From an uncultured Candidatus Bathyarchaeia archaeon (GTDB lineage: Archaea; Thermoproteota; Bathyarchaeia; TCS64): a stretch of DNA of 64,000 bases. Positions 1 to 17,172 of this stretch are shown here, piece by piece. The DNA is taken from the NCBI GenBank assembly GCA_964529745.1, contig CAZGZR010000001.1, forward strand, positions 5,590 through 69,589. Direction: 5' to 3'. The notes under the pieces are model-generated. The model made no database searches. It worked only from the letters and a program-made list of their open reading frames with translations, and was not told the DNA's origin. The first letter of the stretch is position 1; each line of letters opens with the position of its first letter. The position numbers and the translations under genes are program-made.

Positions 1-203
1 CTGGTATCGACCTCGAGGAAGTGGTCGGGTCGCCTGATGCCGAGGTCCTTGAAGAATATCTCGTTGAGCTCGTAATCATAGTTTTGCCCGGTGTGCACAA
101 TCTTGTGGTCGAGGTGCCCGTCCAGCAAGGCCATGACCCGGCTCAGGCGTATTATCTCTGGTCGCGTACCGAGTATCGTAACTACCTTTAAACTGCTATT
201 CAC
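1..203 (-). CDS. UDP-N-acetylglucosamine 2-epimerase (CapG/FnlC/WbjD-like), N-terminal part; gene runs off the window start
   Basis: Minus-strand translation of 1-203 reads MNSSLKVVTILGTRPEIIRLSRVMALLDGHLDHKIVHTGQNYDYELNEIFFKDLGIRRPDHFLEV, a typical non-hydrolysing UDP-GlcNAc 2-epimerase N-terminus. GTG start overlaps the TGA of the upstream gene (GTGA). Self-derived coordinates. Confidence 0.6.
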   Translation of the reverse strand, partial: MNSSLKVVTILGTRPEIIRLSRVMALLDGHLDHKIVHTGQNYDYELNEIFFKDLGIRRPDHFLEVDT

Positions 204-1354: not shown

Positions 1355-1364
1355 ACATTCACCT

Positions 1365-5189: not shown

Positions 5190-5190
5190 C

Positions 5191-6345
5191 GTGAAAATCC
5201 TTCAGATCTGCGACAGAATGGATCCTAACTCCTCGGAAGGAAGAAGAGTAATAACTATCTCAAACGAGCTGTCAAAAAGAGGGTATGACGTTACAGTCGC
5301 TTCAGCCATACGAGCCCAGAAAGAGAAACAGAGAGTCGAATCCTGTTTAGAACACGGCGTAGACATTATCTGGCATAAACCGGCGTTCGGATTCAGTAAC
5401 TTCTCATACTCACCAAGCCTCTACCAGAATATATGTGAGAGAGAGTTTGATTTAATCCACGCACACAGTTACAGGCATTACGGGACTTATATAGGAGCCG
5501 TTCTCGGGAAAAAGAATAAAATCCCTTACATTATGAGTCCATACGGTTCCGTAGGCTATGAATCCACTAGATCCCTTAAACCCCTCTATTGGATGCAAGA
5601 CCTCGTCACCAGAAAACTACCGTTAAAACAGGCGGAAAAAATCCTCGCTAACACAAACTATGAAAAAAACCAGATAATCCGAATAGGCGTCGAGGAGAGT
5701 AAAATCGATGTCGTATACCGTGAGGTAAATACCAGCCTATTTACGAACCGGTGCAACAACTCGTATGATCCAAAAACCGTTCTTTTCGTCGGGCGAATAA
5801 CACCAATTAAAGGCATTGAACTCGTTATCAATGCTCTCAATCTTCTAGACAAAGAAATAACTCTAAAAATAATAGGTCAAGTTGAGAACTACGATTATTT
5901 TAAACGCCTTGAAAACTTGGTTAGACATTACAATCTTCAAGATAGAGTAAACTTCCTCGGTTCAGTGACGCATGAAGAACTCCCTGAACACTATTCCTCT
6001 GCCTTAACCTTGGTTCTTTCTTCCCTTTACGAGAATCTGGGAGGAGTCCTCTTAGAAGCACAAGCGTGCGCCTGCCCCGTTATAACCACTGCAACCGGAG
6101 GCACGGCAGAAGTCCTGGAGAATGGGAAAACCGGGTTCTTGTTGTCTTCGAGATCGCCAAAAGAAATTTCTGAAGCGATCAATCTATTGGCCAATGATCT
6201 ATCGCTAAGAGATCGAATGGGGGTAGAGGCCAGAAGGTTCGTAGAATCAAAGTTCTCAGTTGAACAATACATCGATAGAATCATTTGCTCATATGGAAGC
6301 GCGTTAACTCCATCTATCCACAAGAAAGAGTGTGTTTCTTCATGA
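5191..6345 (+). CDS. GT4 family glycosyltransferase
   Basis: 384 aa. Contains LLEAQACACPVITTATGGTAEVLENGKTGFL, a GT4 donor-binding motif. Starts 2 nt after the previous stop. Confidence 0.75.
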   Translation: MKILQICDRMDPNSSEGRRVITISNELSKRGYDVTVASAIRAQKEKQRVESCLEHGVDIIWHKPAFGFSNFSYSPSLYQNICEREFDLIHAHSYRHYGTYIGAVLGKKNKIPYIMSPYGSVGYESTRSLKPLYWMQDLVTRKLPLKQAEKILANTNYEKNQIIRIGVEESKIDVVYREVNTSLFTNRCNNSYDPKTVLFVGRITPIKGIELVINALNLLDKEITLKIIGQVENYDYFKRLENLVRHYNLQDRVNFLGSVTHEELPEHYSSALTLVLSSLYENLGGVLLEAQACACPVITTATGGTAEVLENGKTGFLLSSRSPKEISEAINLLANDLSLRDRMGVEARRFVESKFSVEQYIDRIICSYGSALTPSIHKKECVSS

Positions 6346-7403
6346 ATATCCTATTGTTGACTTTCAAGACAGATCGGGGAAACGCTTTAGCAGATGCATT
6401 GAATAAGATCGGGTATAATGTATCGGTTGATGAAATAGGTAAGAAAAAGTTATCGATAATCAGGAACCTATACCGCGTGGTATTCTCATATTTTAAGCAT
6501 CATGGGAAATATGATTTGGTAATTACCGAATGTTTTGACTATAACGGTATGCTTGCATTATTATTATCATTTTTTGAGGACACTCCCTACATTATATATG
6601 TGAAAGGGTTTTCACCCGATGATGCTAAAGAGAAATCAGGCAAGTTAACAAGGTTTCTTGATGAGAAATTAAACCATATGATATTTTCAAAAGCAAGTGC
6701 CATTGCATATATTAGTAATCACCTGAAACAGAAATACGAAGAGCATTTCGCAAAAAAACAAAAAGACGAATATTTAAGCGTACCATCAAAGGTAATACAT
6801 CATTCCATAGACGAATCATATTTTAAAAATGAGAAACGTAAAAGATCAGGAAACAGAGTGCTTTATGTTGGTAATCTTGATTTTAAAGGGAAAGCCGATG
6901 GGGCTGTTTTCCTATTAAATATGATGAAAAGCCGCGATGAAACTGAAAGTTATTATCTTTCTATAGTTGGCGGAGGCTCATATTTACCATTTATACAAAG
7001 TTTAGCCAAGGAATATGGACTAAGAAACGTGAAATTTCACGGCTATATAACTAAAAAGGAACTTCAAGCACTTTATAGAGACTCTTCTTTGTTTGTATAT
7101 CCATCTTTTCAAGATGCTTTTCCCACAGTAGTTATGGAGGCCCAGGCGATGGGGCTTCCAGCCATAGTTACTGATACATCAGGCGCAAAAGAGGTTATAA
7201 TCGATGGAAAAACAGGCTACGTGGTTGAAGCTGAGCCAGATGTATTTCATCATGCTTTATTCAAGCTCATTGAAAATGATGAGTTACTAAAATCCATGTC
7301 TGAAGCCTCAAAAACACATATAAAAAAGAATTTAACATGGGAAAAATCGGCTGAAAAATTTCATGAACTAATTACATCTTGCATTATGGAATCTAGGAGA
7401 TGA
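6342..7403 (+). CDS. GT4 family glycosyltransferase (AT-rich)
   Basis: Start taken at the ATG of MNILLLTF, which overlaps the upstream TGA (ATGA). Contains VMEAQAMGLPAIVTDTSGAKEVIIDGKTGYVV, a GT4 motif. GC drops sharply here. Confidence 0.7.
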   Translation: MNILLLTFKTDRGNALADALNKIGYNVSVDEIGKKKLSIIRNLYRVVFSYFKHHGKYDLVITECFDYNGMLALLLSFFEDTPYIIYVKGFSPDDAKEKSGKLTRFLDEKLNHMIFSKASAIAYISNHLKQKYEEHFAKKQKDEYLSVPSKVIHHSIDESYFKNEKRKRSGNRVLYVGNLDFKGKADGAVFLLNMMKSRDETESYYLSIVGGGSYLPFIQSLAKEYGLRNVKFHGYITKKELQALYRDSSLFVYPSFQDAFPTVVMEAQAMGLPAIVTDTSGAKEVIIDGKTGYVVEAEPDVFHHALFKLIENDELLKSMSEASKTHIKKNLTWEKSAEKFHELITSCIMESRR

Positions 7404-7407
7404 TGAT

Positions 7408-8091
7408 TTGAGATCACCTTTTTTCATTCTCTTTGATTCCCTATACAGAGAAAATGTATATGTTTTTGATTTTATTCAATTTATTACAAGACAACAATAT
7501 TACAACCCAACGGCAGATCTCTGTATCGATGGCTTTCCTCGTTCTGCCAATTCATTTGCCGTAAATTTAGTCCATACCGCTTGTCCAGATTTAAAAATAA
7601 ATCACCATCTGCATTCACCAGTAATAATTAAGAAAGCAGTTCGTGATGAGATCCCCATCTTTATACTTATTAGGAATCCTGAGGATGCGGTTACATCCGA
7701 GTACATCCGTTTAAAATATTCTGAAGAGAAAAACCCCGATGTTAAGTGGTTAATTAATAGATACGTTAAGTATTATAGTATCGTAAAAGTTTACGTTGAG
7801 GACATTTTTATTGTAACTTTTGAAAAAGTCACTCAAACTCCTGTTGAATACCTGAAACACGTTTTCTCAAAGTTGCGTCTTAATAATGAAAGGGATTATC
7901 TTGAAATTGTTGCTGAAACTAAGCTTATGGGAAAATCAAAAATTACGGAAGATATTATCTATACAACATCGATACCTACCAGAGAAAGAGATGACTATAA
8001 GAAGCATGTAAAAAGAAAAATTATGTCAAAACATGATTTTTCTCAAGCTAATCAAATATACCAAACGATTGCTGAACAGTTATCTCAATAA
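7408..8091 (+). CDS. sulfotransferase-like protein
   Basis: 227 aa. DGFPRSANSF resembles the PAPS 5'-phosphosulfate-binding loop. LIRNPEDAVTSEY matches the 3'-phosphate-binding R-x-P-x-D-x-x-V-S-x-Y motif. AT-rich. Confidence 0.5.
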   Translation: MRSPFFILFDSLYRENVYVFDFIQFITRQQYYNPTADLCIDGFPRSANSFAVNLVHTACPDLKINHHLHSPVIIKKAVRDEIPIFILIRNPEDAVTSEYIRLKYSEEKNPDVKWLINRYVKYYSIVKVYVEDIFIVTFEKVTQTPVEYLKHVFSKLRLNNERDYLEIVAETKLMGKSKITEDIIYTTSIPTRERDDYKKHVKRKIMSKHDFSQANQIYQTIAEQLSQ

Positions 8092-8207
8092 TGTTAGAGT
8101 GTGTGTATCTTTTTCCACTTATTTCATCTTATATTTACAAAATAAATTTTTAAATATACTAGGATAACATGTCGCGATATTTGACACACGTCTTTGAAGG
8201 TGATTAA

Positions 8208-8885
8208 ATGGGGTTCAAAGTTTTTTACGAACAAAAATATTCGACTAGGAGCGAAAAATTAAACCCCATGAAATTAAAGGCCTTGAGCTATTTCCCATCT
8301 CCACCAAGAAAGATTCTAGATGTAGGGTGTGGGTCAGGGCTCCTCACTCAGCTATTAACTGAGAGAGGCTATGATACAATCGGCATAGACATCTCTGAGA
8401 AAGCCATAGAAAAATGTAGGGAAAAAGGGCTATTGAGTTATCAACAAGATCTGAGTGAAGAACTTCTATTTGAGGATGAAACTTTCGATTGTATTTTAAT
8501 GAGCGAGGTAATTGAACATCTAGTGGATCCTTATTTTGCTCTTCATGAGATTCATAGAGTGCTTAAGAAAAAAGGGATTCTTATTATTACTACCCCAAAT
8601 TCGTCTTTCATTACTAGAAGACTTCGTTATGTATTGGGAAAAACAAGCACGGAAACCCAAAATTTTTCGCATCTACGTTTCTTTAATGTAAGACTACTCA
8701 CTAAAATATTGCATGAGGTAAATTACGATATTCTGGATCTTAAAGGATACTTATTCAATCCCTTCAACCTTAACACAGGGTTCACTTTAGATTTTTTAAA
8801 AAATCTTCTATCTGAAAATTTTATAGTAATAACACAAAAAAGGATAGAAGATAAACCGTACAAATATCCCTTAAATAATGTATGA
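8208..8885 (+). CDS. class I SAM-dependent methyltransferase
   Basis: 225 aa. Motif I ILDVGCGSGLLT, acidic residue after beta-2 (DIS), motif II FDCILMSEVIEH. Confidence 0.75.
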   Translation: MGFKVFYEQKYSTRSEKLNPMKLKALSYFPSPPRKILDVGCGSGLLTQLLTERGYDTIGIDISEKAIEKCREKGLLSYQQDLSEELLFEDETFDCILMSEVIEHLVDPYFALHEIHRVLKKKGILIITTPNSSFITRRLRYVLGKTSTETQNFSHLRFFNVRLLTKILHEVNYDILDLKGYLFNPFNLNTGFTLDFLKNLLSENFIVITQKRIEDKPYKYPLNNV

Positions 8886-8920
8886 TTGTATTCTTTTACA
8901 CTAATATTACTGACATAATA

Positions 8921-11860
8921 TTAATCAGTATTTTTTGGAATGCCTAGATATAATCCCTCTAAGTTGGCTTCATTTGACCAAACATAAAATAAATCAGAGA
9001 AATTTTGATTATCCCCAAAATGAACTGATTCAATACTATAATTTTCACCTGGATAATTTGAGTAATTAAATTTCCTAAAAATTCCGATGTTGGGAGTATC
9101 ATTGTTAAAATATATAGATCCAGTTTTCCATGTTTTCTTTAATGTTTTTTCCTCTGAATACAGTCTACATGAGTAATATAGACCATCTTTAAGTTTTTTA
9201 ATGTCTTTGACTAATATTTTAACGATGTTAAGATATTTATATGATTCATCAAATATATCCCAATTTATTTTTTCTTTATTTCCCCATTCTAAACCATTTG
9301 AAGTATTTACGCGAATTATATTATATGATGATTTGCACTCATTAACCATTGTTTCTGTATATATTAAATTAATTCCATTGTTTTGTATCCAGGCTATAGG
9401 AGAATCAGCTGACCAGTATAAACAAGATGTATTTGGTGTAATTATTTCTGTGATATTTGTCCAGTCATCGCCTTCTTTGCTACTCATAGAAATTATAGAA
9501 TTGTCTTTTAATGACTTGCAAAAGAGTATCAAATCATTATCTCTATTTATTACGTAGGGATCATCATAAAGACCTAGAATAATGGGATCTGTAGCTTTAG
9601 TCCAATTTAATCCATTGCTTGAATAAGCGTATCCAAGCCCAATGTGTCTATCGTCGTCTCCTTTGATGGAGTAATAAAACCTATAATGTGGAGAACTTTT
9701 ATTTATGAAAACTAAATTACTAGGATTTATTATCTGTTTTCCATCTGAATCAATTAAGTTAGACATTAGAGATTCTTTTTCCAAGGTAATATTTTCAGCG
9801 TAAATAATGTCGTTTCTATTATAAGGTAGGGAGATACTAAAAACGAGTAAAGAACCATAAATTATTTTTTTACAATACCTATTTAGATAATCTCTAGTCG
9901 GCGATATTTCTCTTTCACTATAGAACCAATCATCTGTAATGCAGTAATGGATTTTATTTATCTCATTCCTAGAATCGGGGACATTTTTTAATAAATCATA
10001 AGGCGTTTTGTTATAGGATTCTAGCATCCATTTCTTTTCGTCTAAAGTATTTATCATCATATTTCTAGGAGCATCTATAAATTCAAAAATATGTGATGTC
10101 CCAATGGGAAAAATAATCTCATTAGATTCTACAGTTTTAATAAATTGTCCAGCGTCTTCTATGTTTGATGAAGAATATGAGCTAGAATATCTGTTATCTC
10201 CTCCTATTCGATTAATTCCAGCATTTATCTGTGGAGCTAATAATAATATTATAAATAAAATTCTTCCATATTCCTTCCATTGCTCTTTCCGAAATTTACC
10301 TAAAACAAGTCCGCTTCCATTTAAAATAAAAATCTCTTTAATAAAAAATGAAGCAAAATAGGTGGCAATCAATGATATGTAAATTATCAGTCTATTAAGA
10401 GGAACTTGGCACCCAATTATTGAGGCAAGAAGGACTGCGGTTATGAATGTCATCAAATATAACACTATACGATTCGTTTCAGTGAAAGCTTTATACGCGA
10501 TACCTAAAAGGCCTGTAAATAAAATTAACCGATTGAACATATGCCATTTTATATAATCAAATTTAGGATTTACACTGAATAAAGAAGGTTTGATAATGGA
10601 TAAAATAAAAATCGTAATTGATAATGTAATAAAAATAGTTGCTAAATAATTATAATTTATATTCATTCGTAGGAGCATACTCCTATTTATTAATATGTAT
10701 ATACCTAAAAATAGAATAAAAATAACTATAACATAAATATACAAGTTTTGGCTTTCTAAAAAAAATAAATTTTTTATAGGATAAATAAAAAATCCATAAA
10801 ACGGTAGTATAAATAAAGACATAACAATTAGCGAAGCGGCGATGTTTTTAATTTTGTAATATCTTTTTTCAATATAATAATTTCCTATTTCTAATGCAAT
10901 TACTGTGAGGTTTATCGCTATGGGCAGCATATGGGAGGTTAAAGAGGATGCCAAAAATAAACCATTTACAAAAATATATGTGTATTTATATTTAAAGTCA
11001 TTTTTCTTTTCTAAAACTATTAAAAGTAGAAAACTTGATAACATTAATATTATTGAAAAGTTTTCCCTAAGCAACATCGCGAATCTTAACCCTGTCCAAG
11101 GATTCATGAGGACGAGGGTTCCTGTTAAAACACCAACCAAAGTCCCGGCTATTCGTTTAAATATGAGATAACTCAAAACGCAGAATAATCCAACAAAGGC
11201 TATTGGTCCGTACCGCATGATTTCTTGACTTTTAAAGCCTGTATATTTTGAAACCATCGTTACAAAATATGGGAACCCAAAGTTCCATAACGATAGATAA
11301 GCTCTAAACTGTTCCACTGATTCGTATGGAGATAAATCAAGTGTCACTAGTCTTCTGGATATTGTGGCTGTTTCCCAAGTGTCCCATCCTAACCAATATT
11401 CTCCAGGGGTTTGACGTGCCACGAAGTATCCTCCTGCAAGAAAAGGGATGAAAGCTGCTAACCAGCTTATTATGAAAGATTTTATCTCGATTTTGTAGTA
11501 AAATCGTGTTTCATAAAATTGGTAAAATAGAAACTCGCAGAAGATCAAGAAGAATGATGTCTGTAATAGAAGAAATCTTGTAACTTGATCAAAAAGAAGG
11601 GTGAGTAATATATATGTCCAGAGTAACAGAAGGGTACTCAACACAACATTTATGATTATAAACTCATCAAAGTTAAGATCCAATTCATTTTTTAAGATTG
11701 CACTTAGGTAGAAGCCGGGGATTATTATGAGAAAAAGAAGAGAGAAAAACTTGTAACTCATAGTATTTAGGTTAATAACCGATGAATAAATCCAGAAAAA
11801 AAATGATGCAAGTAAGGGCATATAATTAATTTTTTTATTAAATAGCCCTTGGTAATTCAT
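8921..11860 (-). CDS. large polytopic membrane protein (GT-C-like N-terminal domain, about 13 or more TM) fused to a C-terminal Asp-box/BNR-type beta-propeller; function unknown
   Basis: 979 aa, AT-rich. N-terminal approx. 500 aa are strongly hydrophobic, with a conserved acidic loop LKNELDLNFDEF and YWLGWDTWE. C-terminal approx. 400 aa contain repeated S-x-N-G-L-x-W blades (YSSNGLNW, NTSNGLEW). Paralog of 12878-15829. Confidence 0.6.
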   Translation of the reverse strand: MNYQGLFNKKINYMPLLASFFFWIYSSVINLNTMSYKFFSLLFLIIIPGFYLSAILKNELDLNFDEFIIINVVLSTLLLLWTYILLTLLFDQVTRFLLLQTSFFLIFCEFLFYQFYETRFYYKIEIKSFIISWLAAFIPFLAGGYFVARQTPGEYWLGWDTWETATISRRLVTLDLSPYESVEQFRAYLSLWNFGFPYFVTMVSKYTGFKSQEIMRYGPIAFVGLFCVLSYLIFKRIAGTLVGVLTGTLVLMNPWTGLRFAMLLRENFSIILMLSSFLLLIVLEKKNDFKYKYTYIFVNGLFLASSLTSHMLPIAINLTVIALEIGNYYIEKRYYKIKNIAASLIVMSLFILPFYGFFIYPIKNLFFLESQNLYIYVIVIFILFLGIYILINRSMLLRMNINYNYLATIFITLSITIFILSIIKPSLFSVNPKFDYIKWHMFNRLILFTGLLGIAYKAFTETNRIVLYLMTFITAVLLASIIGCQVPLNRLIIYISLIATYFASFFIKEIFILNGSGLVLGKFRKEQWKEYGRILFIILLLAPQINAGINRIGGDNRYSSSYSSSNIEDAGQFIKTVESNEIIFPIGTSHIFEFIDAPRNMMINTLDEKKWMLESYNKTPYDLLKNVPDSRNEINKIHYCITDDWFYSEREISPTRDYLNRYCKKIIYGSLLVFSISLPYNRNDIIYAENITLEKESLMSNLIDSDGKQIINPSNLVFINKSSPHYRFYYSIKGDDDRHIGLGYAYSSNGLNWTKATDPIILGLYDDPYVINRDNDLILFCKSLKDNSIISMSSKEGDDWTNITEIITPNTSCLYWSADSPIAWIQNNGINLIYTETMVNECKSSYNIIRVNTSNGLEWGNKEKINWDIFDESYKYLNIVKILVKDIKKLKDGLYYSCRLYSEEKTLKKTWKTGSIYFNNDTPNIGIFRKFNYSNYPGENYSIESVHFGDNQNFSDLFYVWSNEANLEGLYLGIPKNTD

Positions 11861-11995
11861 ACTTTACTAGCTAAGTTTTGAGGGATATTTATCAGATGTT
11901 GAGTAAAAAAATAATACATACCATTCCGGTTGATTTGTAACCGTTGTTCTCAAGTCTACTTCATGAATCCTTTCATGAACATATAACTTAAATGA

Positions 11996-12679
11996 TCATT
12001 TAACGGCTTTAGCCATAATATGGTAATAATAGGGAAATACGCCTAAAATGTGTTTTTCGGGGAACATCTTAACAAATTCAATCCCCGCCTCCTCAAGGAA
12101 TTTTTTCATTTCATTCACCGAGAAATATCTTCTATATGCATATACATCCTCTCCATCACCCGTTTTCCCAGCTGTCTTAATGTAATGTTCTTTTCTACCC
12201 AACATTTCTAGTATCTTTATGGGAATCTCTGAGAAGCATTGAGTTGTAGTAAGAGCAACAAACCCACCGGGCTTTACCACTCGCCCCATCTCGGAAATAA
12301 TTTCTTTGATAACTTCCTCATTTTTTATATGAATGATTACTTGCTCAGCAAAAGCTACATCGCAGGAATTGTCGGGCAATGAGAGGTCCTGGCCTAGCTC
12401 GTTTAAAAGGTCTACTCTGGAATCTTTTACCATGAAATGGTGATATAATTCACTTGGTTCGACAGCATAGTATTTGGATACACCATATTCCTCTAATATG
12501 GCTCGTGCTATTCTTCCTACTCCAGCACCTACATCCAGAACAACATCTCCGTCTTTTATAGGAAGTATTTTAGCGATATCTCGTGCATACGCTCTGCTTT
12601 TCTCTGACATCAATATCTTTGCGTAATCATCAGCAATGCTATCGTGCATCTCCACGCTGTCAAGTAATTTCATATCCAA
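11996..12679 (-). CDS. class I SAM-dependent methyltransferase
   Basis: 227 aa. Motif I VLDVGAGVGRIA, then VEPSEL, then post-II PGGFV. Confidence 0.7.
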   Translation of the reverse strand: MDMKLLDSVEMHDSIADDYAKILMSEKSRAYARDIAKILPIKDGDVVLDVGAGVGRIARAILEEYGVSKYYAVEPSELYHHFMVKDSRVDLLNELGQDLSLPDNSCDVAFAEQVIIHIKNEEVIKEIISEMGRVVKPGGFVALTTTQCFSEIPIKILEMLGRKEHYIKTAGKTGDGEDVYAYRRYFSVNEMKKFLEEAGIEFVKMFPEKHILGVFPYYYHIMAKAVK

Positions 12680-12877
12680 CTAGATGGAGTTTGATTTTAA
12701 GAGTTAAATAATCATGTAGGTACAATCTAAAACACTCAATGATTAACCCTCAATATGGTCGAAAAAATCCGTCTCCACTATCAAAGAGATCTAATAACTG
12801 GTGATATAATATCCAGGTAACTACAGTCTACAAATATTTGTATTCGCTGGTGTTGTGGTGTAATCTCCATTCACTTA

Positions 12878-15829
12878 TTGATATATACATTTGGATGGAA
12901 CTTGGAAATAATGTTGCGGTCGAGAGGCTCGATTAGCAGATTTACGCCATTTTTTTTCTCGCTCATCCTTACTCTTTACTCATACATTGGAATTAAATTT
13001 TGGTTTGTAGACTCACTTCTTATCCCCGTCTTTGTTTTCGCGGCCCCAGGCTTCCTGGTGAGCTACCGGCTTTCTCATGAACTCGATTTGTCTTTGGATG
13101 AGTTTCTAGTTATCACAATAATATTCAGCGGAGTAGTCCTGATGTTTCTCTACCTTGCTCTTACCTGTATGTTTGCCTATGTAGCTCCATACATGGTTTT
13201 TGGGGGCTTGACTTGCTTCCTCTTCGTATTGGGGTTTCTGGTTGACGTTTCAACAGAGACTTTAGGAACCATCGATGATGAGACGATTAAAGGCTTGGGG
13301 GGGCTACTAGCGAGTTATTTTTTAGGTTTTTGGGTTATTTCCTGTTATATGCCCCTGCAATATTGGAGGGGTCCCGATGGGTGGGAGAACATCAATGTTT
13401 TCAGGAAGATTTCTGAGATGGGGTTATCTCCGGTAGAAGCATACAATTTTTTCAGGTGTTACGTTAAGATTCCGAATCCTGGCTTCTATTACTATTTCTC
13501 GGTTTTACATCTGATGACAGGGTTCTCTGTTGAGTCCATCATGCGTTATGGCGGTATGATACAGACGGGGGTGTTCGTCTCGCTGGCTTATATAACCTTC
13601 AAACGAGTAAACGGCCTCCTGTCAGGGTTGTCAGGTGTTTTTCTCCTCGTTCTCAATCCTTACTTTAACCACAGATTCATGGTTCTTCTACGCGAAGAGT
13701 TCAGCCTCTTCTTTTTTTTTACCGGTTTGTTCCTTTATATCTGCAACAGAGAATCTGGAGATTGGTCTTATCCTCTTAGAATAATGGTCATGGGTAGCTT
13801 GTTGGCATCCTGTATGGTATCTCACCCCATGGTACCTGTTTTTTTTATCGGGTTATTGGTATGCCGGATGGGCTATTCTTTCATCGAGAGAAAATTTGAT
13901 GAGATAACCGTCGAATTATACTCTCTCGTCCTCAGCCTGATACTTGTATTACCTTTTCTAAACATAATGTTAGATCCACTTGGCATTTTCATGAATAAAA
14001 TTTCATTGCCATACTTGTTGATTGGCTCATGTTTAGTGATCGTAGTAATCTCATCAATGTATCTTATTTATTATCAAAAAATAGATGTTGAACGTCTTAT
14101 TCCTACGGTACAAAAAGTTATGATCGTCCTCATGTTTTTCCTCCCATTACTAGGAGTAACGGTCAAACCTAATCTAGGCGAATCGTATTCTTTTGGATTC
14201 ATCGATATCGAAGATTTCTCAAAAATTCTTGTCCCCTTGTCAGTAGCTGGGTATTTCCTTCATTCTCTAGGGAGAATGGAGAAAAATATTGTTGGATTGA
14301 ATCTCATCACAGTCATATTGATAGCCTTAAGCTATCTTAGGATCCCCTTGCCTCTGGATCGACTCTCTATTCCACTTATTTGGCTCATGAGTTTCTATGC
14401 TTCCTATCTAGTAAATGCTTCAAAGCAGGCGTCTTTCCATGAAACAGCTTCAATTACACAAGATTCTGAGCTAGTTTCTAACTTGTTAAAACATCGAATG
14501 ACACTGGTTTTCATCTTGATGATATTCGCCGGAGGCGTGCTCGAGCTATCAACTATTACCAGGAAGTTGTCTACCTTCGATGCGTCGTGTGTCGAAGATA
14601 CCAATCTGTTTGTCTCAGAGTTGGAGCCAGGGGAGCTTGTTTTTCCTTACGGTACCGCCGATCATATGCTGTACTATGCAAATATACCGCAGGATAACAT
14701 CGTCGCAGATCTGGAGGTTAAAAATAAGCTTGCACTACTGCTGGACCAAGATTCTATATACGAGATCTCGGAGCTGGTTCAGGAAAGTTATCCTGAAGTC
14801 AACTCCTTGATCTTCTACGTAGATAGCTGGTATGAAAATGATCTCCGCGAAAAACCTTTCTGCGATCTATTGGAGTTATACTTCGAGAAAGCTGTTAGGG
14901 GATGTTTCTCGTCTTACGGGTTAGAAATACCCTTTACCGTCGAGAAACTAAAGTTAAACCAGGTTAGATACATCAAGGATTTCCCCGAAGACCCTCTCTT
15001 CGGCTCACATTGCAATATCACTGCAACAAGTAACATTCTGACCCTACCCGATGAAGAGGCATCTTATAAGTTCATGTTTCTAAGTGCGGATGCTGATGGA
15101 ACAAAGTATATTGGTTTAGCCTCCTCAACAAACGGTCTAGATTGGAACATAGATTACGAGGATAAACTAGGCTATGAACTTGAATCTATAGGCCTCATCG
15201 AACGTGACGATCGATACTATCTATATGCAGGTACTTCCTCCAAGGTCCAAGTTGTTCGGCTTGATAGCAATGACTTACGCAATTGGGGCAACTATACCAT
15301 AGTCATTGATTCTTCATCGAGGGATGAACTGGTTTTCATAGAGTCTCCCCTGGTATGGCAGGAAGAAAGCGGTTTTCGAATGTTATGGTGGGAAACCACG
15401 ATAGGAGACTCCATGATGAATGGAGTCCATTACGCCACCTCGATAGACGGTGCTAATTGGGTTATAGAACATAGGTCTCTGGAATGGGCCTTATTGGATT
15501 CCAGATACAGAGCGAATGAATATGACAAGATACTTCCCTATGACTTGATGCGAATAGGTGAAGGCATTATCATTCTGGCAAGAATGCACAAGGCTGACGG
15601 GTTTTCCCCAAAGAAATGGGTTACGGGCTCAATTACTCTTGAAGATGTAACCTCTAAGGCAGCTGAGGTGCAGGGTTTTGTATACAAGGATCATATTGAA
15701 TCTGAAATGGACTCGATTCATGTGATAAGAGACCTCGACGGTGTTAACCTGAGGTTCATTTACCTTGAATATTGTAGAGGTCGAGTCTACATCGGGGCTG
15801 CCTCCGACCATTATGGTGTGGAAAAATGA
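12878..15829 (+). CDS. large polytopic membrane protein with C-terminal Asp-box beta-propeller (paralog of 8921-11860)
   Basis: 983 aa. Same N-terminal motifs (LSHELDLSLDEF, YWRGPDGWE). C-terminal blades GLASSTNGLDW, HYATSIDGANW (S-x-D-G-x-x-W Asp-box). Confidence 0.6.
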   Translation: MIYTFGWNLEIMLRSRGSISRFTPFFFSLILTLYSYIGIKFWFVDSLLIPVFVFAAPGFLVSYRLSHELDLSLDEFLVITIIFSGVVLMFLYLALTCMFAYVAPYMVFGGLTCFLFVLGFLVDVSTETLGTIDDETIKGLGGLLASYFLGFWVISCYMPLQYWRGPDGWENINVFRKISEMGLSPVEAYNFFRCYVKIPNPGFYYYFSVLHLMTGFSVESIMRYGGMIQTGVFVSLAYITFKRVNGLLSGLSGVFLLVLNPYFNHRFMVLLREEFSLFFFFTGLFLYICNRESGDWSYPLRIMVMGSLLASCMVSHPMVPVFFIGLLVCRMGYSFIERKFDEITVELYSLVLSLILVLPFLNIMLDPLGIFMNKISLPYLLIGSCLVIVVISSMYLIYYQKIDVERLIPTVQKVMIVLMFFLPLLGVTVKPNLGESYSFGFIDIEDFSKILVPLSVAGYFLHSLGRMEKNIVGLNLITVILIALSYLRIPLPLDRLSIPLIWLMSFYASYLVNASKQASFHETASITQDSELVSNLLKHRMTLVFILMIFAGGVLELSTITRKLSTFDASCVEDTNLFVSELEPGELVFPYGTADHMLYYANIPQDNIVADLEVKNKLALLLDQDSIYEISELVQESYPEVNSLIFYVDSWYENDLREKPFCDLLELYFEKAVRGCFSSYGLEIPFTVEKLKLNQVRYIKDFPEDPLFGSHCNITATSNILTLPDEEASYKFMFLSADADGTKYIGLASSTNGLDWNIDYEDKLGYELESIGLIERDDRYYLYAGTSSKVQVVRLDSNDLRNWGNYTIVIDSSSRDELVFIESPLVWQEESGFRMLWWETTIGDSMMNGVHYATSIDGANWVIEHRSLEWALLDSRYRANEYDKILPYDLMRIGEGIIILARMHKADGFSPKKWVTGSITLEDVTSKAAEVQGFVYKDHIESEMDSIHVIRDLDGVNLRFIYLEYCRGRVYIGAASDHYGVEK

Positions 15830-15928
15830 TTTTCAGTACTAAAATAATCGATTAAAGATAAAGGCAATCATTCAGCGTCTTTGTGTGAATACAACCGCAT
15901 CATTTACGTCATCAAATTTAAAATATTA

Positions 15929-16159
15929 TTATATTATGATTTTTCCTCTTTCAAATTGCTTATTGTACCATATCTTTCCACGGGATCTTCTGCTGATCTT
16001 CTTTGGATTCCCTAAGACCGCGAATTGCTTTACCATGCTGAGGGCACGGATTATTATATAACTCGTTACAGATAACACCATCTTTATAGTAGTATTTACT
16101 ATCCTGTGAGAATATACAAAGTCATCAGCTCCAAGTATTTCTCGGATATTGTATGCCAT
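15929..16159 (-). CDS. hypothetical small ORF at the island boundary (may be non-coding)
   Basis: 76-aa ORF in an AT-rich intergenic stretch. No recognisable motif. Confidence 0.15.
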   Translation of the reverse strand: MAYNIREILGADDFVYSHRIVNTTIKMVLSVTSYIIIRALSMVKQFAVLGNPKKISRRSRGKIWYNKQFERGKIII

Positions 16160-16347
16160 GAGTAACTGATGTTTCTTTAAACAGATTTAGCTATATGTCA
16201 GTGTTACATTTCTTCCGCAGACATATTTAATCATTAACACGCTGTTGCACTTGCATCGAGCTGTATGCATAAGCCTGAATGTTGTTGCCGACTGTGTGGT
16301 TTATAGGACTTTATATAATGTTTCTGTATAATTACTTGGCGCATCAT

Positions 16348-17073
16348 ATGTCGAGCATTGAGATCGTTGAAATAGCCGAGGTCACAGAGAAGAGGCGTGT
16401 AACCGTCACGGGTTTCGCGGGGGCGGGCTCCATAGGCAACACGGCCTTGATGCACATGGTCAGAGCCGAGGGATATAGGCAGGTGGCTTACGTCAAGGGC
16501 GACATGATGCCTCCTCTGATGATCCTGATACAGGGGAAGCCCAACCGTGGCTTCCGGATATATGCAGACAAGGAAGACAGGCATCTGTTGCTGGTGACCG
16601 AGGCGATGCTTTCCACCGGGGCCGCTTGGGCCGTCGGCCGGGAGCTTATGAGGTGGTTTAGGGAGAAAGGCGTTGATGAGATCATTGCTCTCGAGGGGTT
16701 CCCTTTCAGCCAGACCGGAAGGAGGATCTTCGGGTTCACCACGGGCGGAAGGGACCTTCAGGGCGTCGGCGTCCAGCCGCTGTCCGAGGGGGCTATTCCA
16801 GGGGTCAACGCTTCGCTGCTTGAGGAGGCGGTGAGGCTGGGCGTTGACTGGACCACCGTGTTCGTCCCGACTCAGGTCATCGGCGGCGTCGATTACCGGG
16901 GGGCTGCCGACGCAGTAGAGGTGCTCAACAAGATGCTGGGCCTAGATGTTGACACAGGGCAGCTTCATGTGATGGCGGAGACGATGGCTAGGGCGGCCAG
17001 ATCCGCGCAGAGGCGGGAGCAGAAGAAGGGTGGGTTGCTGGGCAGGATTTTTCCCGGGGAATCCGACGAGTAG
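16348..17073 (+). CDS. PAC2-family protein (proteasome assembly chaperone-like, ATP-grasp-like fold)
   Basis: Start moved to the internal ATG (MSSIEIV), because the upstream part of the ORF is AT-rich island sequence. VTGFAGAGSIGNTAL matches the PAC2 G-x-P/A-G-x-G-x-V/IG motif. Length about 240 aa. Confidence 0.5.
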   Translation: MSSIEIVEIAEVTEKRRVTVTGFAGAGSIGNTALMHMVRAEGYRQVAYVKGDMMPPLMILIQGKPNRGFRIYADKEDRHLLLVTEAMLSTGAAWAVGRELMRWFREKGVDEIIALEGFPFSQTGRRIFGFTTGGRDLQGVGVQPLSEGAIPGVNASLLEEAVRLGVDWTTVFVPTQVIGGVDYRGAADAVEVLNKMLGLDVDTGQLHVMAETMARAARSAQRREQKKGGLLGRIFPGESDE

Positions 17074-17096: not shown

Positions 17097-17172
17097 TGGT
17101 GGAGAGAGGAGGAGTCGAACCTCCACGCATACGCCAATCAAGGCGCCGTTCTCCCAGTTAAACTATCTCTCC
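17097..17172 (-). tRNA. tRNA gene with encoded CCA; anticodon loop reads UUGAUU (probably GAU, Ile) but the anticodon arm is non-canonical
   Basis: Minus strand reads GGAGAGAUAGUUUAACUGGGAGAACGGCGCCUUGAUUGGCGUAUGCGUGGAGGUUCGACUCCUCCUCUCUCCACCA. It has a 7-bp acceptor stem, a D-arm with GG, a T-arm GGAGG/UUCGACU/CCUCC, a 5-nt variable loop, and discriminator A plus CCA. The anticodon stem GCGCC/GGCGU closes only 6 nt. Confidence 0.75.

What the first reader, a model, noticed from the sequence alone, without database searches (positions are those of the whole stretch)
6300..16250. About 10 kb AT-rich compositional island of glycan-modifying genes embedded in GC-rich chromosome
GC falls from roughly 58-60% to roughly 35-40% between about 6.3 kb and about 16.25 kb, then returns abruptly. 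The transition occurs inside the run of three GT4 genes, which themselves go from GC-rich to AT-rich. The island carries a GT4, a sulfotransferase-like gene, two SAM methyltransferases and two giant membrane/propeller proteins. This indicates horizontal acquisition (or strong amelioration lag) of a glycan-decoration cassette appended to a native glycosylation operon. No integrase, transposase or flanking direct repeat was seen, so the acquisition mechanism is unclear.
Basis: seen in the sequence. Interest (0 to 1): 0.55.

Follow-up and report, generated by a model that had tools for sequence, protein, structure and literature searches.

The report
Low-GC variable core, archaeal glycan locus
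The AT-rich block is real, but it is not a recent foreign insertion: it is the variable core of a cell-surface sugar-chain gene cluster that has the same GC trough at the same chromosomal site in every related archaeal (Bathyarchaeia) genome found, and lineages swap it by recombination through its conserved borders, which is a known pattern for surface-glycan loci.

Summary
Observation confirmed. GC is 0.353 over 6300-16250 against 0.557 for the rest of the window, with a minimum of 0.27. GC3 is 0.26-0.46 against 0.745±0.08. The tetranucleotide signature is also distinct.

Interpretation partly supported. The host is an archaeon (TFB, PAC2; nearest genome is a Bathyarchaeia MAG). All eight or so related loci recovered, including one with giants only about 35% identical, carry the same cluster with a GC trough between the same conserved genes. 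So the trough is old and locus-specific, not a strain-specific acquisition. Polarised substitutions show no drift toward host GC.

Lateral exchange does occur. Against one relative the cassette is 94-97% identical in DNA, but the PAC2 flank is about 80%. The breakpoint lies inside the second giant gene. Recombination through conserved borders explains why there is no integrase and no repeats.

The two giant proteins belong to a family with no Pfam model. A confident model (pLDDT 91) shows a GT-C-fold membrane glycosyltransferase fused to a GH130/GH43-type five-bladed propeller. It lacks the WWDYG motif, so it is not a canonical oligosaccharyltransferase.

Verdict: a new archaeal member of the known "replacement flexible genomic island" / O-antigen-like class. 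Moderate interest.

The parts
200..1354 (-). Conserved GC-rich left arm: FnlB/WbcJ/CapF-type reductase (SDR plus cupin), for UDP-2-acetamido-2,6-dideoxy-L-hexose synthesis
   Evidence: Pfam Epimerase + Polysacc_synt_C. NCBIfam WbcJ-type reductase at 1.3e-70, below the curated cut-off. 80-89% identical in L005 and L007. GC3 0.69.
1365..2444 (-). Conserved left arm: FnlA/CapE-like UDP-GlcNAc 4,6-dehydratase/5-epimerase
   Evidence: Pfam Polysacc_synt_2 at 1e-96. NCBIfam FnlA at 9e-113. 88-92% identical in L005/L007. GC3 0.78.
2809..4065 (+). Conserved left arm: WbuX-like N-acetyl-sugar amidotransferase (PP-loop, SGGRDS motif)
   Evidence: NCBIfam TIGR03573 WbuX at 6.8e-44, below the curated cut-off. 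88-90% identical in L004/L007 and 72% in L018. GC3 0.73.
3981..5189 (+). GT4 glycosyltransferase a, the border gene where GC and conservation begin to fall
   Evidence: Pfam Glycos_transf_1/Glyco_trans_4_4. GC3 0.61. 63-77% identical to orthologs. Gene callers start it later (366 aa).
5191..6345 (+). GT4 glycosyltransferase b, in the transition zone
   Evidence: Pfam Glycos_transf_1 at 1.4e-40. GC3 0.45. 51-57% identical in L004/L005/L007. The part covered by L003 is about 91% identical in protein and about 94-96% in DNA.
6342..7403 (+). GT4 glycosyltransferase c, first gene of the low-GC central cassette
   Evidence: Pfam Glycos_transf_1 at 2.4e-33. GC3 0.30. Identity is 92% (L003), 79% (L007), 43% (L004) and 25%, i.e. 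no ortholog, in L005.
7408..8091 (+). Putative sulfotransferase-like protein (central cassette)
   Evidence: No family hit at default thresholds. Sulfotransfer_1 below threshold in 5/5 orthologs (best E 0.0056) and Sulfotransfer_3 in 2/5. Invariant GFPRSANS and IR-P-D--S motifs. A 33%-identical homolog lies next to a sulfatase-family gene in L018. Absent from L004 and L005.
8208..8885 (+). SAM-dependent methyltransferase 1 (central cassette)
   Evidence: Pfam Methyltransf_23/11/25. GC3 0.31. 97% (L003), 85% (L007), 69% (L004) identical.
8921..11860 (-). Giant A: GT-C-fold membrane glycosyltransferase with a C-terminal five-bladed propeller. The most variable and most AT-rich gene (GC 0.298).
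   Evidence: Full-length paralog of giant B (25% identity, E 4e-74). No Pfam hit. Carries the family's D/R/E/R signature. Identity is 94% (L003), 70% (L007, L006) and only 27-28% in L004/L005.
11996..12679 (-). SAM-dependent methyltransferase 2 (central cassette)
   Evidence: Pfam Methyltransf_11/25/23. GC3 0.36. 97% (L003), 79-80% (L007, L006) identical. Absent from L004/L005.
12878..15829 (+). Giant B: GT-C-fold membrane glycosyltransferase, a small alpha/beta domain, and a GH130/GH43-type five-bladed propeller. Right border gene with an internal GC and divergence gradient.
14085..14884 (.). Recombination breakpoint zone relative to L003, inside giant B
   Evidence: DNA identity in 400-bp bins is 94-97% up to 14084, 90% at 14085-14884, 83-84% at 14885-15684, and about 80% beyond. 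dS in giant B is 0.19 (aa 0-400), 0.27 (400-650) and 0.47 (650-980).
15830..16278 (.). AT-rich intergenic spacer and right compositional boundary
   Evidence: GC is 0.33-0.39, then rises to 0.59-0.64 by 16.4-16.7 kb. Poorly alignable with L003. A 76-aa ORF is called here in L001.
16279..17073 (+). PAC2 proteasome-assembly-chaperone family gene: conserved right flank and anchor of the locus
   Evidence: Pfam PAC2 at 6e-29. GC3 0.74-0.76. Follows giant B in L001, L003, L004, L005 and L013. 77-83% identical.

Best explanation
The AT-rich block is the variable core of a chromosomal cell-surface glycan biosynthesis locus of a Bathyarchaeia archaeon. In the terms used for aquatic prokaryotes it is a 'replacement' flexible genomic island, and it is the archaeal counterpart of an O-antigen or capsule locus.

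Anatomy:
- A conserved GC-rich left arm makes an activated 2-acetamido(-amidino)-2,6-dideoxy-L-hexose (FnlA-, FnlB/WbcJ- and WbuX-like enzymes).
- GT4 enzymes build an oligosaccharide on a lipid carrier at the cytoplasmic face (inferred).
- The cassette's methyltransferases and its sulfotransferase-like protein decorate the oligosaccharide (inferred).
- The two GT-C-fold proteins with outward-facing propellers add or process sugars on the outer face, using polyprenyl-phosphate-linked donors. This would resemble AglS, GtrC, ArnT or PMT rather than an oligosaccharyltransferase (inferred from fold and conserved residues).

Evolution:
- The locus sits at one fixed site between conserved genes in all relatives (shown).
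- Its centre exists as highly divergent alternative cassettes (shown).
- Cassettes move between lineages by homologous recombination in the conserved borders. This needs no integrase or repeats (shown for one pair, with a breakpoint inside giant B).
- The low GC is an old, self-maintaining property of the locus, not a fading mark of recent import. The trough is present in all lineages, scales with host GC, tracks divergence, and is near compositional equilibrium (shown).
- Its likely cause is that the GC-favouring force acting on the core genome is weak where alleles are too divergent to recombine and where codon adaptation is relaxed, so AT-biased mutation sets the composition. That force could be biased gene conversion, selection on codon usage, or both (inferred).
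- Diversifying selection by viruses or other agents that recognise surface glycans is the presumed driver (inferred by analogy, not tested).
For: Host and locus:
- TFIIB and PAC2 genes flank the island. The nearest genome is a Bathyarchaeia MAG.
- The right flank is core metabolism, syntenic with L004.

Same locus and same trough in all relatives:
- L003, L004, L005; L006-L009; L013/14; distant L018 with flanks at 0.46-0.52 GC and the cluster at 0.32-0.39. The STT3-like cluster L010/11 shows it too.

Different content at one site:
- Methyltransferases, the sulfotransferase-like gene and an extra GT4 are present or absent. The orientation of giant A differs.
- Giant A is 27-28% identical where the left-arm genes are 88-92% identical (PAC2 is about 80%).

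Mosaicism:
- The window's cassette is closest to L003/L007, but its giant B is closer to L004/L005 than to L007.
- Identity correlates with GC3 (rho 0.61, p 0.001, n = 26).

Recent exchange:
- 94-97% DNA identity over at least 8.4 kb against about 80% in the flank, with a stepwise breakpoint.
- dS is 0.05-0.16 in the cassette against 0.41-0.47 in the flank. dN/dS is 0.09-0.44, so the genes are functional.

No mobility genes or repeats.

No amelioration:
- In the cassette, AT>GC is 76 against GC>AT 59, which implies an equilibrium GC of 0.34-0.38.
- The per-site AT>GC/GC>AT rate ratio is 0.61 in the cassette and 0.58 in the left arm, against 1.05 in a core gene (p = 0.002).
- The amino-acid shift shows long residence at low GC.

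Giants:
- Confident model and fold matches.
- One family member passes Pfam's STT3 threshold and another gives a sub-threshold PMT_2 match.
- Distant relatives of the C-terminal domain are GH130/GH43/GH32 proteins.

Concept: PMC4033161 describes replacement islands for surface glycans, without integrases, exchanged through conserved borders, including in an archaeon. PMC10715155 reports that O-polysaccharide clusters generally have lower GC than their genomes.
Against: - All relatives are metagenome contigs or MAG fragments. Their relationships are judged from a few flank genes, not from genomes.
- The 'recent exchange' rests on one pair (window vs L003). The flank evidence there is only about 420 bp of PAC2 plus the end of giant B. 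Lower dS in AT-rich genes could partly reflect constraint or a different mutation rate.
- The substitution polarisation uses parsimony with outgroups only 77-88% identical. The GC-rich controls themselves show a GC>AT excess, so absolute equilibrium values are unreliable. Only the contrast between regions is meaningful, together with the known direction of the bias (common to rare), which makes the cassette result conservative.
- The island's tetranucleotide signature is far from the host's, as a foreign origin would also predict.
- No glycan, target protein, lipid carrier, flippase, initiating transferase or canonical AglB was identified in the window. The biochemical roles are inferred.
- The cause of the low GC (weak gene conversion or selection, as opposed to positive selection for AT-richness) was not tested.
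Confidence: 0.7

Rival explanations
1. A single recent horizontal acquisition by this genome of a glycan-decoration cassette from a low-GC donor, not yet ameliorated.
For: Strong GC, GC3 and tetranucleotide anomaly. Sharp right boundary. A tRNA gene lies 850 bp from the right edge.
Against: The same cluster and trough occur at the same site in all relatives, including ones whose orthologs are only 35-60% identical. The left boundary is a gradient through three genes. There is no integrase or att-like repeat. Native-composition PAC2 separates the tRNA from the island. There is no net AT>GC flux. Amino-acid composition is deeply shifted.
Confidence: 0.04
2. The locus is old, but its low GC is imported. 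Cassettes are repeatedly replaced from a pool that resides in low-GC organisms, for example low-GC Asgard or other archaea, so each cassette arrives AT-rich and is replaced before it ameliorates.
For: One 70%-identical giant A homolog is deposited under a Hodarchaeales (Asgard) MAG. The island's tetranucleotide signature differs from the host's. Cassette exchange between lineages is demonstrated. The substitutions separating the window from L003 could have occurred in a donor.
Against: The 'Hodarchaeales' contig (L006) is 9.2 kb of island only. It has the same gene order as the Bathyarchaeia loci, and its GC rises to 0.46-0.52 at both ends. A sister contig is labelled 'Deltaproteobacteria' yet ends in the archaeal PAC2 gene. 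Composition-driven misbinning is therefore the simpler reading. No homolog was found on a uniformly low-GC contig. The trough is V-shaped, with gradients running through conserved border genes, rather than a step. The depth of the trough scales with host GC. The conserved left arm shows the same AT-ward rate ratio as the cassette, which points to a local regime.
Confidence: 0.17
3. The low GC is kept by positive selection for AT-richness itself rather than by weak GC-favouring forces. Possible reasons are tuning expression or translation speed of membrane enzymes, local chromatin or transcription properties, or raising mutability of a contingency locus.
For: The trough persists over deep divergence and sits at compositional equilibrium. 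Purifying selection acts on the proteins. The most AT-rich gene is a polytopic membrane protein.
Against: Nothing here separates this from the neutral or weak-gene-conversion explanation. AT-richness also affects soluble methyltransferases and intergenic DNA. The correlation with divergence is predicted by the recombination-based model and not obviously by this one.
Confidence: 0.08
4. Assembly or binning artefact: a chimeric contig that joins DNA of a low-GC organism to a GC-rich archaeal chromosome.
For: Metagenome-derived sequence. The nearest MAG contig breaks exactly at the island edge. Island contigs are visibly misbinned in public MAGs.
Against: The same junctions on both sides are found in independent assemblies from different samples and pipelines: Logan SRR14802572, Logan SRR21285571, ENA 124-kb and 22.8-kb contigs, JGI contigs and NCBI MAGs. 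GC changes gradually inside intact, conserved ORFs.
Confidence: 0.01

Closest known systems
Replacement flexible genomic islands ('glycotype' islands) of aquatic bacteria and Haloquadratum walsbyi (Lopez-Perez, Martin-Cuadrado & Rodriguez-Valera 2014, PMC4033161)
   Same: Fixed chromosomal site in all strains. Equivalent function (surface glycan) with different or very divergent genes. No integrases or boundary repeats. The same cassette shared by divergent backgrounds. Raised divergence in the bordering genes. Exchange by homologous recombination in conserved borders.
   Different: The published cases compare strains of one species (over 96-98% ANI) with nearly identical exchanged islands. 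Here the backgrounds differ by about 10-20% in flank proteins and the shared cassette is 94-97% identical, so the exchange is older or spans a wider group. The host is an uncultured Bathyarchaeia. The persistent, V-shaped GC trough near equilibrium was analysed here, and the term 'GC content' does not occur in that paper's main text. Phage-driven selection and under-recruitment in metagenomes were not tested.
Bacterial O-antigen / capsule gene clusters (e.g. enterobacterial galF-gnd loci; Pseudomonas OBC3, PMC10715155)
   Same: Nucleotide-sugar genes, several GTs and modification enzymes in one cluster. Markedly lower GC than the genome. Serotype-like allelic diversity between conserved flanks. 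An FnlA/FnlB/WbuX-type L-FucNAc(Am) pathway, as in some O-antigen clusters (own knowledge of E. coli O145-type clusters, plus NCBIfam hits).
   Different: Archaeal host with no LPS. No Wzx/Wzy/WaaL homologs were detected in the window. In their place are two GT-C/propeller proteins. Low GC in O-antigen loci is usually read as a sign of foreign origin, but here the data favour in-situ maintenance.
Archaeal N-glycosylation (agl) gene clusters, e.g. Haloferax volcanii agl cluster and second pathway (PMC3892788; PMC5898192)
   Same: Clustered GTs, sugar methyltransferase(s), nucleotide-sugar enzymes and a PMT/STT3-like GT-C protein next to them. [quoted passage not shown] One relative (L018) lies next to an archaellin gene, a typical N-glycoprotein.
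   Different: No canonical AglB (WWDYG) in the window or in any fetched locus. No experimental link to N-glycans. The GT-C proteins here carry a GH130/GH43-like propeller and an extra N-terminal membrane segment.
GT-C-fold, polyprenyl-phosphate-sugar-dependent glycosyltransferases acting on the outer face: AglS, GtrC, ArnT, PMT, DPY19, ALG mannosyltransferases, STT3/AglB/PglB
   Different: Sequence similarity is marginal: only 1 of 13 members scanned reaches the STT3 threshold and another member gives a sub-threshold PMT_2 match. No solved GT-C structure is hit by the sequence profile. No WWDYG or DxD. The architecture found here (DUF1616-like N-terminal helices, GT-C core, small alpha/beta domain, five-bladed propeller) has no Pfam model. 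It did not turn up in the one literature search that targeted GT-C/propeller fusions.
GH130 / GH43 / GH32 five-bladed beta-propellers and GT108 mannosyltransferases (PMC12814180)
   Different: Fused to a membrane GT and presumably extracellular, where phosphorolysis is unlikely (inference). Conservation is mostly of structural Ser/Gly/Trp positions. The GH130 catalytic and phosphate-binding residues were not mapped.

Membership tests
Replacement flexible genomic island (surface-glycan 'glycotype' island) | Present at the same chromosomal position in related genomes | tested here: met
   The cluster lies between the FnlA/WbuX/GT4a arm and PAC2 (or the Met-zincin) in L001, L003, L004, L005, L007-9 and L013/14. 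L018 has the same left arm.
Replacement flexible genomic island (surface-glycan 'glycotype' island) | Equivalent function, but different or highly divergent genes in different lineages | tested here: met
   The centre differs in methyltransferases, the sulfotransferase-like gene, an extra GT4 and gene orientation. Giant A is 27-28% and GT4c 25-43% identical where the left-arm genes are 88-92% identical (PAC2 about 80%).
Replacement flexible genomic island (surface-glycan 'glycotype' island) | No integrase, transposase or att-like repeats at the boundaries | tested here: met
   Pfam on all genes from 200 to 21337. The repeat search found only short, imperfect matches at chance level. One relative (L017) has a DUF772 transposase fragment nearby.
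Replacement flexible genomic island (surface-glycan 'glycotype' island) | Near-identical island shared by divergent backgrounds (evidence of recent replacement by homologous recombination) | tested here: met
   Window vs L003: 94-97% DNA identity over 5685 to about 14100, against about 80% at PAC2, with a stepwise breakpoint in giant B. dS is 0.05-0.16 against 0.41-0.47. Caveat: one pair, a short flank, and not 'nearly identical' as in the published within-species cases.
Replacement flexible genomic island (surface-glycan 'glycotype' island) | Raised, mostly synonymous, divergence in the bordering shared genes | tested here: inconclusive
   Border genes are more divergent than distal flank genes: GT4a 63-77%, GT4b 51-57%, giant B 51-62% and PAC2 about 80%, against CapE and PP-loop at 88-92%, TFB at 90% and the Met-zincin at 92% DNA identity. 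At these distances dS is saturated, so 'mostly synonymous' could not be checked.
Replacement flexible genomic island (surface-glycan 'glycotype' island) | Encodes an exposed surface structure; under-recruits metagenomic reads; diversity linked to virus recognition | not testable with these tools
   Surface exposure is inferred from gene functions only. No read-level data or virus information is available.
Classical integrative genomic island (tRNA-targeted, integrase-mediated) | Integrase or recombinase gene, flanking direct repeats, insertion into a tRNA gene | tested here: not met
   No integrase. No flanking repeats. The only tRNA (17100-17172) is intact and separated from the island by PAC2.
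Classical integrative genomic island (tRNA-targeted, integrase-mediated) | Sporadic presence or absence among close relatives | tested here: not met
   Present in every related locus recovered.
GT-C-fold glycosyltransferases (the two giant proteins) | Polytopic membrane domain with the GT-C fold | tested here: met
GT-C-fold glycosyltransferases (the two giant proteins) | Conserved acidic residue in the first extracytoplasmic loop, plus basic residues for the lipid-phosphate donor | tested here: inconclusive
   D167 (YWxGxDPW motif), R266, E273 and R495 are invariant in 52 relatives. R223, R272 and H316 are at least 90% conserved. Their placement at the active site was not checked by residue-level superposition.
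GT-C-fold glycosyltransferases (the two giant proteins) | Uses a polyprenyl-phosphate-linked sugar donor | not testable with these tools
   Needs biochemistry.
Oligosaccharyltransferase STT3/AglB/PglB | WWDYG motif in the C-terminal soluble domain and DxD/ExD motifs in the membrane domain | tested here: not met
   No WWDYG-like motif (W[WY]D[YWF][GN]) in any of the 14 sequences examined; one (P0013) has a bare WWD tripeptide near its C-terminus. No conserved DxD motif: only two members have an isolated, non-aligned DxD in their first 350 residues. The C-terminal domain is a five-bladed propeller, not the OST core domain. It is therefore not filed as an OST, although the membrane fold is closest to STT3/AglB.
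GH130 / GH43 / GH32 five-bladed propeller (furanosidase-type clan) | Five-bladed beta-propeller fold | tested here: met
GH130 / GH43 / GH32 five-bladed propeller (furanosidase-type clan) | Catalytic acid/base residues and, for GH130, phosphate-binding residues | not tested
   No residue-level structural alignment was available. The giants themselves fall below all Pfam thresholds.
Sulfotransferase (gene 7408-8091) | Significant match to a sulfotransferase family, with PAPS-binding 5'-PSB and 3'-PB motifs | tested here: inconclusive
   Sulfotransfer_1 at E 0.0056-0.024 in 5/5 orthologs and Sulfotransfer_3 in 2/5, all below threshold. Nothing in PDB or NCBIfam. The invariant GFPRSANS and IR-P-D--S resemble the two motifs by eye (own knowledge).
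Archaeal N-glycosylation (agl) cluster | Linked canonical AglB, or demonstrated N-glycan product | tested here: not met
   No AglB/STT3 Pfam hit among the window genes tested or in the gene tables of the fetched loci. The product is unknown.

The most novel reading that the evidence does not exclude
Two linked claims. (1) The long-noted low GC of surface-glycan islands is not a footprint of foreign origin here. It is an equilibrium state produced in place, because the GC-favouring force of the core genome (biased gene conversion and/or codon selection) fails where alleles are too divergent to recombine. If so, this archaeal locus, with its V-shaped trough conserved across deep divergence and a locus-wide AT-ward rate ratio of about 0.6 against about 1.05 in the core, would be a natural test system for that question. 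(2) The paired GT-C/propeller proteins are a previously undescribed family of cassette-specific, outer-face glycan-modifying enzymes of archaea. There are about 20 full-length clusters at 50% identity, and the family has no Pfam model.
Probability: 0.3. Interest if true: 0.6.

Novelty: new member of a known kind. Interest (0 to 1): 0.4.

Why it matters
For genome interpretation: a strong GC, codon and tetranucleotide anomaly is routinely read as recent horizontal acquisition. Here the same anomaly is an old, stable feature of one locus, and that changes how such islands should be annotated.

For metagenomics: this island breaks assemblies at its edge. It also gets its contigs binned into unrelated MAGs (labelled 'Deltaproteobacteria' and 'Hodarchaeales'), which could seed false claims of cross-domain gene transfer.

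For archaeal biology: Bathyarchaeia are abundant and largely uncultured. This locus gives a first picture of a strain-variable surface-glycan system in them. It also identifies a GT-C/propeller protein family, with no Pfam model, as its constant core.

For evolution: the locus offers a tractable case for why surface-polysaccharide clusters are AT-rich.

Tried and rejected
- Exact look-up of PAC2 found nothing.
- The genome-contig scan with PAC2 gave one relative whose contig starts at PAC2, so synteny could not be read there.
- The first AF2 model, from 13 sequences, was unusable (pLDDT 48). A 52-sequence alignment fixed this.
- The third homologous-protein search, with the broad alignment, returned nothing new.
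- The metagenome scan added only copies of loci already held.
- Sequence-profile searches of the PDB never hit a GT-C structure. Only fold comparison did.
- The AFDB50 fold library was unavailable. The taxonomic spread of the fused architecture among annotated proteins is therefore unknown.
- The promoter/terminator scan was at chance level and uses bacterial consensus patterns, so it says nothing for an archaeon.
- The repeat search found no boundary repeats.
- Canonical oligosaccharyltransferase was considered for the giants and rejected (no WWDYG or DxD).
- tRNA-targeted integration was considered and rejected (PAC2 intervenes and there is no integrase).
- Chimeric assembly was considered and rejected (independent assemblies share the junctions).
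- My first amelioration test assumed the host is at equilibrium at its present GC. The controls showed that the GC-rich genes themselves give a GC>AT excess with this crude method. I therefore re-based the test on the core gene's empirical rate ratio, and I treat absolute equilibrium values as unreliable.
- Literature searches found nothing specifically on Bathyarchaeia glycan islands.

Full report
**1. The observation**

The compositional island is real and strong.
- GC is 0.353 for 6300-16250 against 0.557 for the rest of the window. In 1 kb windows it reaches 0.27-0.30 between 8.5 and 11.5 kb.
- Third-codon-position GC of the seven island genes is 0.26-0.46. For 43 other ORFs the mean is 0.745 (sd 0.079). 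That gives z = -3.6 to -6.1 and Mann-Whitney p = 2.7e-5.
- The tetranucleotide z-score profile of the island correlates with the host at r = 0.49. Ten host segments of the same size give 0.82±0.035.
- Island proteins are enriched in AT-codon amino acids (FYMINK 0.31-0.42 against 0.18-0.27 in the flanks).
- The left boundary is a gradient. It begins near 4.3-4.5 kb and runs through three GT4 genes (GC3 0.61, 0.45, 0.30). The right boundary is sharp, at about 16.2-16.4 kb.
- The island has two composition classes: about 30-35% GC at 6.3-11.9 kb and about 39-44% at 12-15.8 kb.
- The other dips in the window (34-36, 43-44, 51-52 kb) are 1-2 kb or less.

**2. Genes**

Left of the island, at native composition:
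- an FnlB/WbcJ-type reductase (200-1354)
- an FnlA/CapE-type UDP-GlcNAc 4,6-dehydratase/5-epimerase (1365-2444)
- a WbuX-like N-acetyl-sugar amidotransferase (2809-4065)

 Relatives also have the FnlC-type 2-epimerase just beyond the window start.

Then, in order: GT4a, GT4b, GT4c, a 227-aa protein, methyltransferase 1, giant A (979 aa, minus strand), methyltransferase 2 (minus strand) and giant B (983 aa).

The 227-aa protein has only sub-threshold sulfotransferase matches, but they are consistent: Sulfotransfer_1 in 5/5 orthologs, best E 0.0056. It has invariant GFPRSANS and IR-P-D--S motifs.

Right of the island are PAC2, a tRNA, TFIIB, a Met-zincin and core metabolic genes. The host is therefore an archaeon, and the nearest genome in the species collection is a Bathyarchaeia MAG.

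There is no integrase or transposase, and no meaningful boundary repeat.

**3. The giant proteins**

They are full-length paralogs (25% identity, E 4e-74) with no Pfam or NCBIfam match.

The family is rare. Word-indexed searches of 5.8 billion proteins gave 9 and 4 hits. An exhaustive profile search of 1.84 billion representatives gave 44 hits at E ≤ 1e-30, of which about 20 are full-length.

That search also showed the family is modular:
- Proteins of about 650-700 aa match only the membrane and middle part. Two of these carry DUF1616.
- Hundreds match only the C-terminal unit. These carry Pfam GH130, GH43 or GH32N.

A 13-sequence alignment gave a useless model (pLDDT 48). A 52-sequence alignment gave pLDDT 91 and pTM 0.85.

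Fold comparison of the membrane half:
- Foldseek: yeast and human STT3, DPY19, AglB, PglB, ArnT and AftA, at E 5e-8 to 5e-5.

Sequence evidence:
- One family member passes Pfam's STT3 gathering score and another gives a sub-threshold PMT_2 match over the same segment.
- Across 52 relatives D167, R266, E273 and R495 are invariant.
- The oligosaccharyltransferase hallmarks WWDYG and DxD are absent.

I therefore file the giants as GT-C-fold glycosyltransferases but not as AglB-type oligosaccharyltransferases. By analogy with AglS, GtrC, ArnT and PMT (own knowledge), they most likely add or remodel sugars on the outer face from polyprenyl-phosphate-linked donors. The propeller would be a glycan-binding module or a second catalytic module. 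That fold can hydrolyse, phosphorolyse or transfer sugars (PMC12814180).

**4. Comparison with relatives: the decisive evidence**

Contexts of the giants' homologs were fetched. Every related locus has the cluster at the same place and has a GC trough there.

| Locus | Gene order | Composition |
|---|---|---|
| L004 (124 kb contig) | WbuX-like / GT4 / GT4 / MT / MT / giant(-) / GT4 / giant / PAC2 | GC3 0.66, 0.69, 0.58, 0.45, 0.37, 0.40, 0.45, 0.60, 0.83 |
| L005 | FnlC / FnlB / FnlA / GT4 x3 / giant / giant / PAC2 | GC3 0.75, 0.84, 0.58, 0.43, 0.20, 0.37, 0.55, 0.71 (FnlB onward) |
| L007-9 | Met-zincin / giant B / MT / giant A / MT / ST-like / GT4 x3 / WbuX / FnlA-C | V-shaped trough, about 0.28-0.32 GC in the centre |
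| L018 (much more distant: WbuX 72%, giants about 35%) | archaellin / GT2 / WbuX / GT4 / GT4 / MT / ST-like / sulfatase-family / giant / giant | flanks 0.46-0.52 GC, cluster 0.32-0.39 |

**5. Hypervariability and mosaicism**

Identities of the window's proteins to their counterparts:

| Against | Identities (%) |
|---|---|
| L004 | WbuX 88, GT4a 77, GT4b 51, GT4c 43, MT1 69, giant A 28, giant B 62, PAC2 80 |
| L005 | FnlB 89, FnlA 92, GT4a 63, GT4b 51, GT4c 25, giant A 27, giant B 58 |
| L007 | the centre is much closer (GT4c 79, ST 73, MT1 85, giant A 70, MT2 79), but giant B is only 51 |

Flanks that are about equally distant therefore enclose centres ranging from unrelated to close, and modules have different nearest relatives. 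Identity correlates with GC3 (rho 0.61, p 0.001, n = 26).

**6. Evidence of exchange**

Against L003, DNA identity in 400-bp bins changes as follows:
- 94-97% from 5685 to 14084
- 90% at 14085-14884
- 83-84% at 14885-15684
- about 80% in the spacer and PAC2

Synonymous divergence is 0.05-0.16 in the cassette. Along giant B it is 0.19, 0.27 and 0.47, and it is 0.41 in PAC2. dN/dS is 0.09-0.44 throughout.

The cassette therefore has a common ancestor 3-4 times younger than the flank, is under purifying selection, and has a recombination breakpoint inside giant B. That breakpoint is not at the GC boundary. This is the pattern described for replacement flexible genomic islands (PMC4033161), and it explains why no integrase or repeats are present.

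Caveats: this is one pair, and the flank is short.

**7. Is the island ameliorating?**

I polarised the differences between the window and L003 using L007 and L006 as outgroups.
- The cassette shows AT>GC 76 and GC>AT 59. At third positions the counts are 40 and 30.
- If it were evolving toward the host's present composition, the AT>GC fraction should be 0.75 (0.90 at third positions). The observed fractions are 0.56 and 0.57 (p = 4e-6 and 7e-13).
- Controls showed that this crude method also gives a GC>AT excess in GC-rich genes: 204 vs 97 in the left arm and 59 vs 38 in the Met-zincin. Absolute equilibria are therefore unreliable.
- Re-based on the core gene's empirical per-site rate ratio (1.05), the cassette's ratio is 0.61 and the left arm's is 0.58. 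The cassette's AT>GC fraction is still below expectation (0.56 against 0.69, p = 0.002).
- Parsimony bias runs from common to rare states, so it would inflate AT>GC in AT-rich DNA. The result is therefore conservative.

The locus evolves under a more AT-ward regime than the core and shows no sign of amelioration.

**8. Explanation**

The block is the variable core of a surface-glycan locus of the replacement-island / O-antigen-like kind.
- Shown: fixed site, alternative cassettes, exchange through conserved borders, and an old trough near equilibrium.
- Inferred: the biochemical roles, the surface location of the product, diversifying selection, and the cause of the low GC.

For the cause of the low GC, I favour weak biased gene conversion and/or weak codon selection where alleles are too divergent to recombine, which leaves AT-biased mutation to set the composition. 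This accounts for three things: the V shape through conserved border genes, the correlation with divergence, and the way the trough scales with host GC.

The main rival is a cassette pool held in low-GC organisms. It is not excluded, but it has no positive support:
- The only non-Bathyarchaeia labels are 'Hodarchaeales' (L006) and 'Deltaproteobacteria' (L005).
- Both sit on short contigs with this locus's gene order. The GC of L006 rises to 0.46-0.52 at both ends.
- L005 carries the archaeal PAC2 gene and the FnlA/FnlB arm at 79-92% identity.

**9. Novelty and score**

Low-GC, hypervariable surface-polysaccharide loci without integrases are well known in bacteria and have been seen in haloarchaea. 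The finding as stated is therefore a new member of a known kind.

Three things go beyond the ordinary:
- the demonstration, in an uncultured archaeal lineage, that the trough is ancient and near equilibrium
- the GT-C/propeller family as the constant core of the locus
- the misassembly and misbinning that the island causes

Interest 0.4.

Noticed in passing
window 34098-37486: The smaller GC dip at 34-36 kb holds AT-rich copies of neighbouring GC-richer genes. 34098-34394 vs 37115-37486 is 72% identical. 34512-35165 (GC3 0.37) vs 35570-36205 (GC3 0.64) is 29% identical, E 5e-34. A glutaredoxin-like ORF lies between them (35162-35485). It looks like a duplicated or imported small module of different composition.
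   Followed up: partly
L005 (JGI Ga0366832_1017916 / NCBI MBW1736733.1), L006 (NCBI JBQSKJ010000174.1), L002 (CAZBUI010000178.1): Public MAG labels for island-bearing contigs are inconsistent with their content. L005 is labelled 'Deltaproteobacteria' but carries archaeal PAC2 and the FnlA/FnlB arm at 79-92% identity to this locus. L006 is labelled 'Hodarchaeales' but consists only of island sequence in the same gene order. The nearest Bathyarchaeia MAG contig (L002) begins exactly at PAC2. The island appears to break assemblies and misdirect composition-based binning.
   Followed up: partly
window 17100-17172 (-): tRNA gene between PAC2 and TFB. Rfam scores it 51.6 bits, but ARAGORN could not name its anticodon ('tRNA-???'). 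It is 93-96% identical in DNA in L004 and L007, even where the neighbouring gene order differs.
   Followed up: no
P0045 and other hits: The roughly 150-residue C-terminal unit of the giants (profile positions about 710-855) also occurs as tandem repeats in very large proteins, up to 25 matched stretches in a 5844-aa protein. Smaller multi-repeat relatives carry several GH130 Pfam matches.
   Followed up: partly
L017 (ENA ERZ23498525 scaffold_4337), 1-7600: A giant B homolog (54-55% identical) sits outside the usual context. It has a GT4c-like fragment and a DUF772 transposase-domain ORF upstream and a PIN gene downstream. It has no PAC2 and no second giant. The gene still shows the 5'-to-3' GC rise (0.41 to 0.58). 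Possibly a disrupted or relocated copy of the locus.
   Followed up: partly
L018 (NCBI GCA_026014815.1 JAOZHP010000047.1), 388-16123: In this distant relative the cluster lies next to an archaellin gene and a GT2. The homolog of the sulfotransferase-like protein sits beside a sulfatase-family (PF00884) gene, and a 1256-aa transglutaminase-core protein follows the giants.
   Followed up: partly
L010 / L011 (ENA ERZ27251159, Logan SRR6056555): A more distant, 830-aa member of the giant family (P0013) passes Pfam's STT3 threshold. It lies in a different glycan cluster (polysaccharide deacetylase, hexapeptide acyltransferase, 2 GT4, MT, GT2, DUF2304) that also shows a GC trough (0.26 in the centre, about 0.5 at the contig ends).
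   Followed up: partly
window 3981-4065 and 6285-6345: The longest-ORF starts of GT4a and GT4c overlap the preceding genes by 85 and 61 bases. Gene callers on the identical Logan contig start them later (366 and 353 aa), as they do giant B (972 aa) and PAC2 (241 aa).
   Followed up: no
window 15830-16278: The AT-rich spacer between giant B and PAC2 aligns poorly even with L003. It contains a 76-aa ORF called on the minus strand of the window in the identical contig L001 (1021-1251). Function unknown.
   Followed up: no
window 43000-44000 and 51551-52033: Two further short GC dips. One is a mostly intergenic stretch with small ORFs at 43-44 kb (GC 0.39). The other is a 160-aa ORF resembling an Lrp/AsnC-type regulator by eye (GC3 0.46) at 51.5-52 kb.
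   Followed up: no
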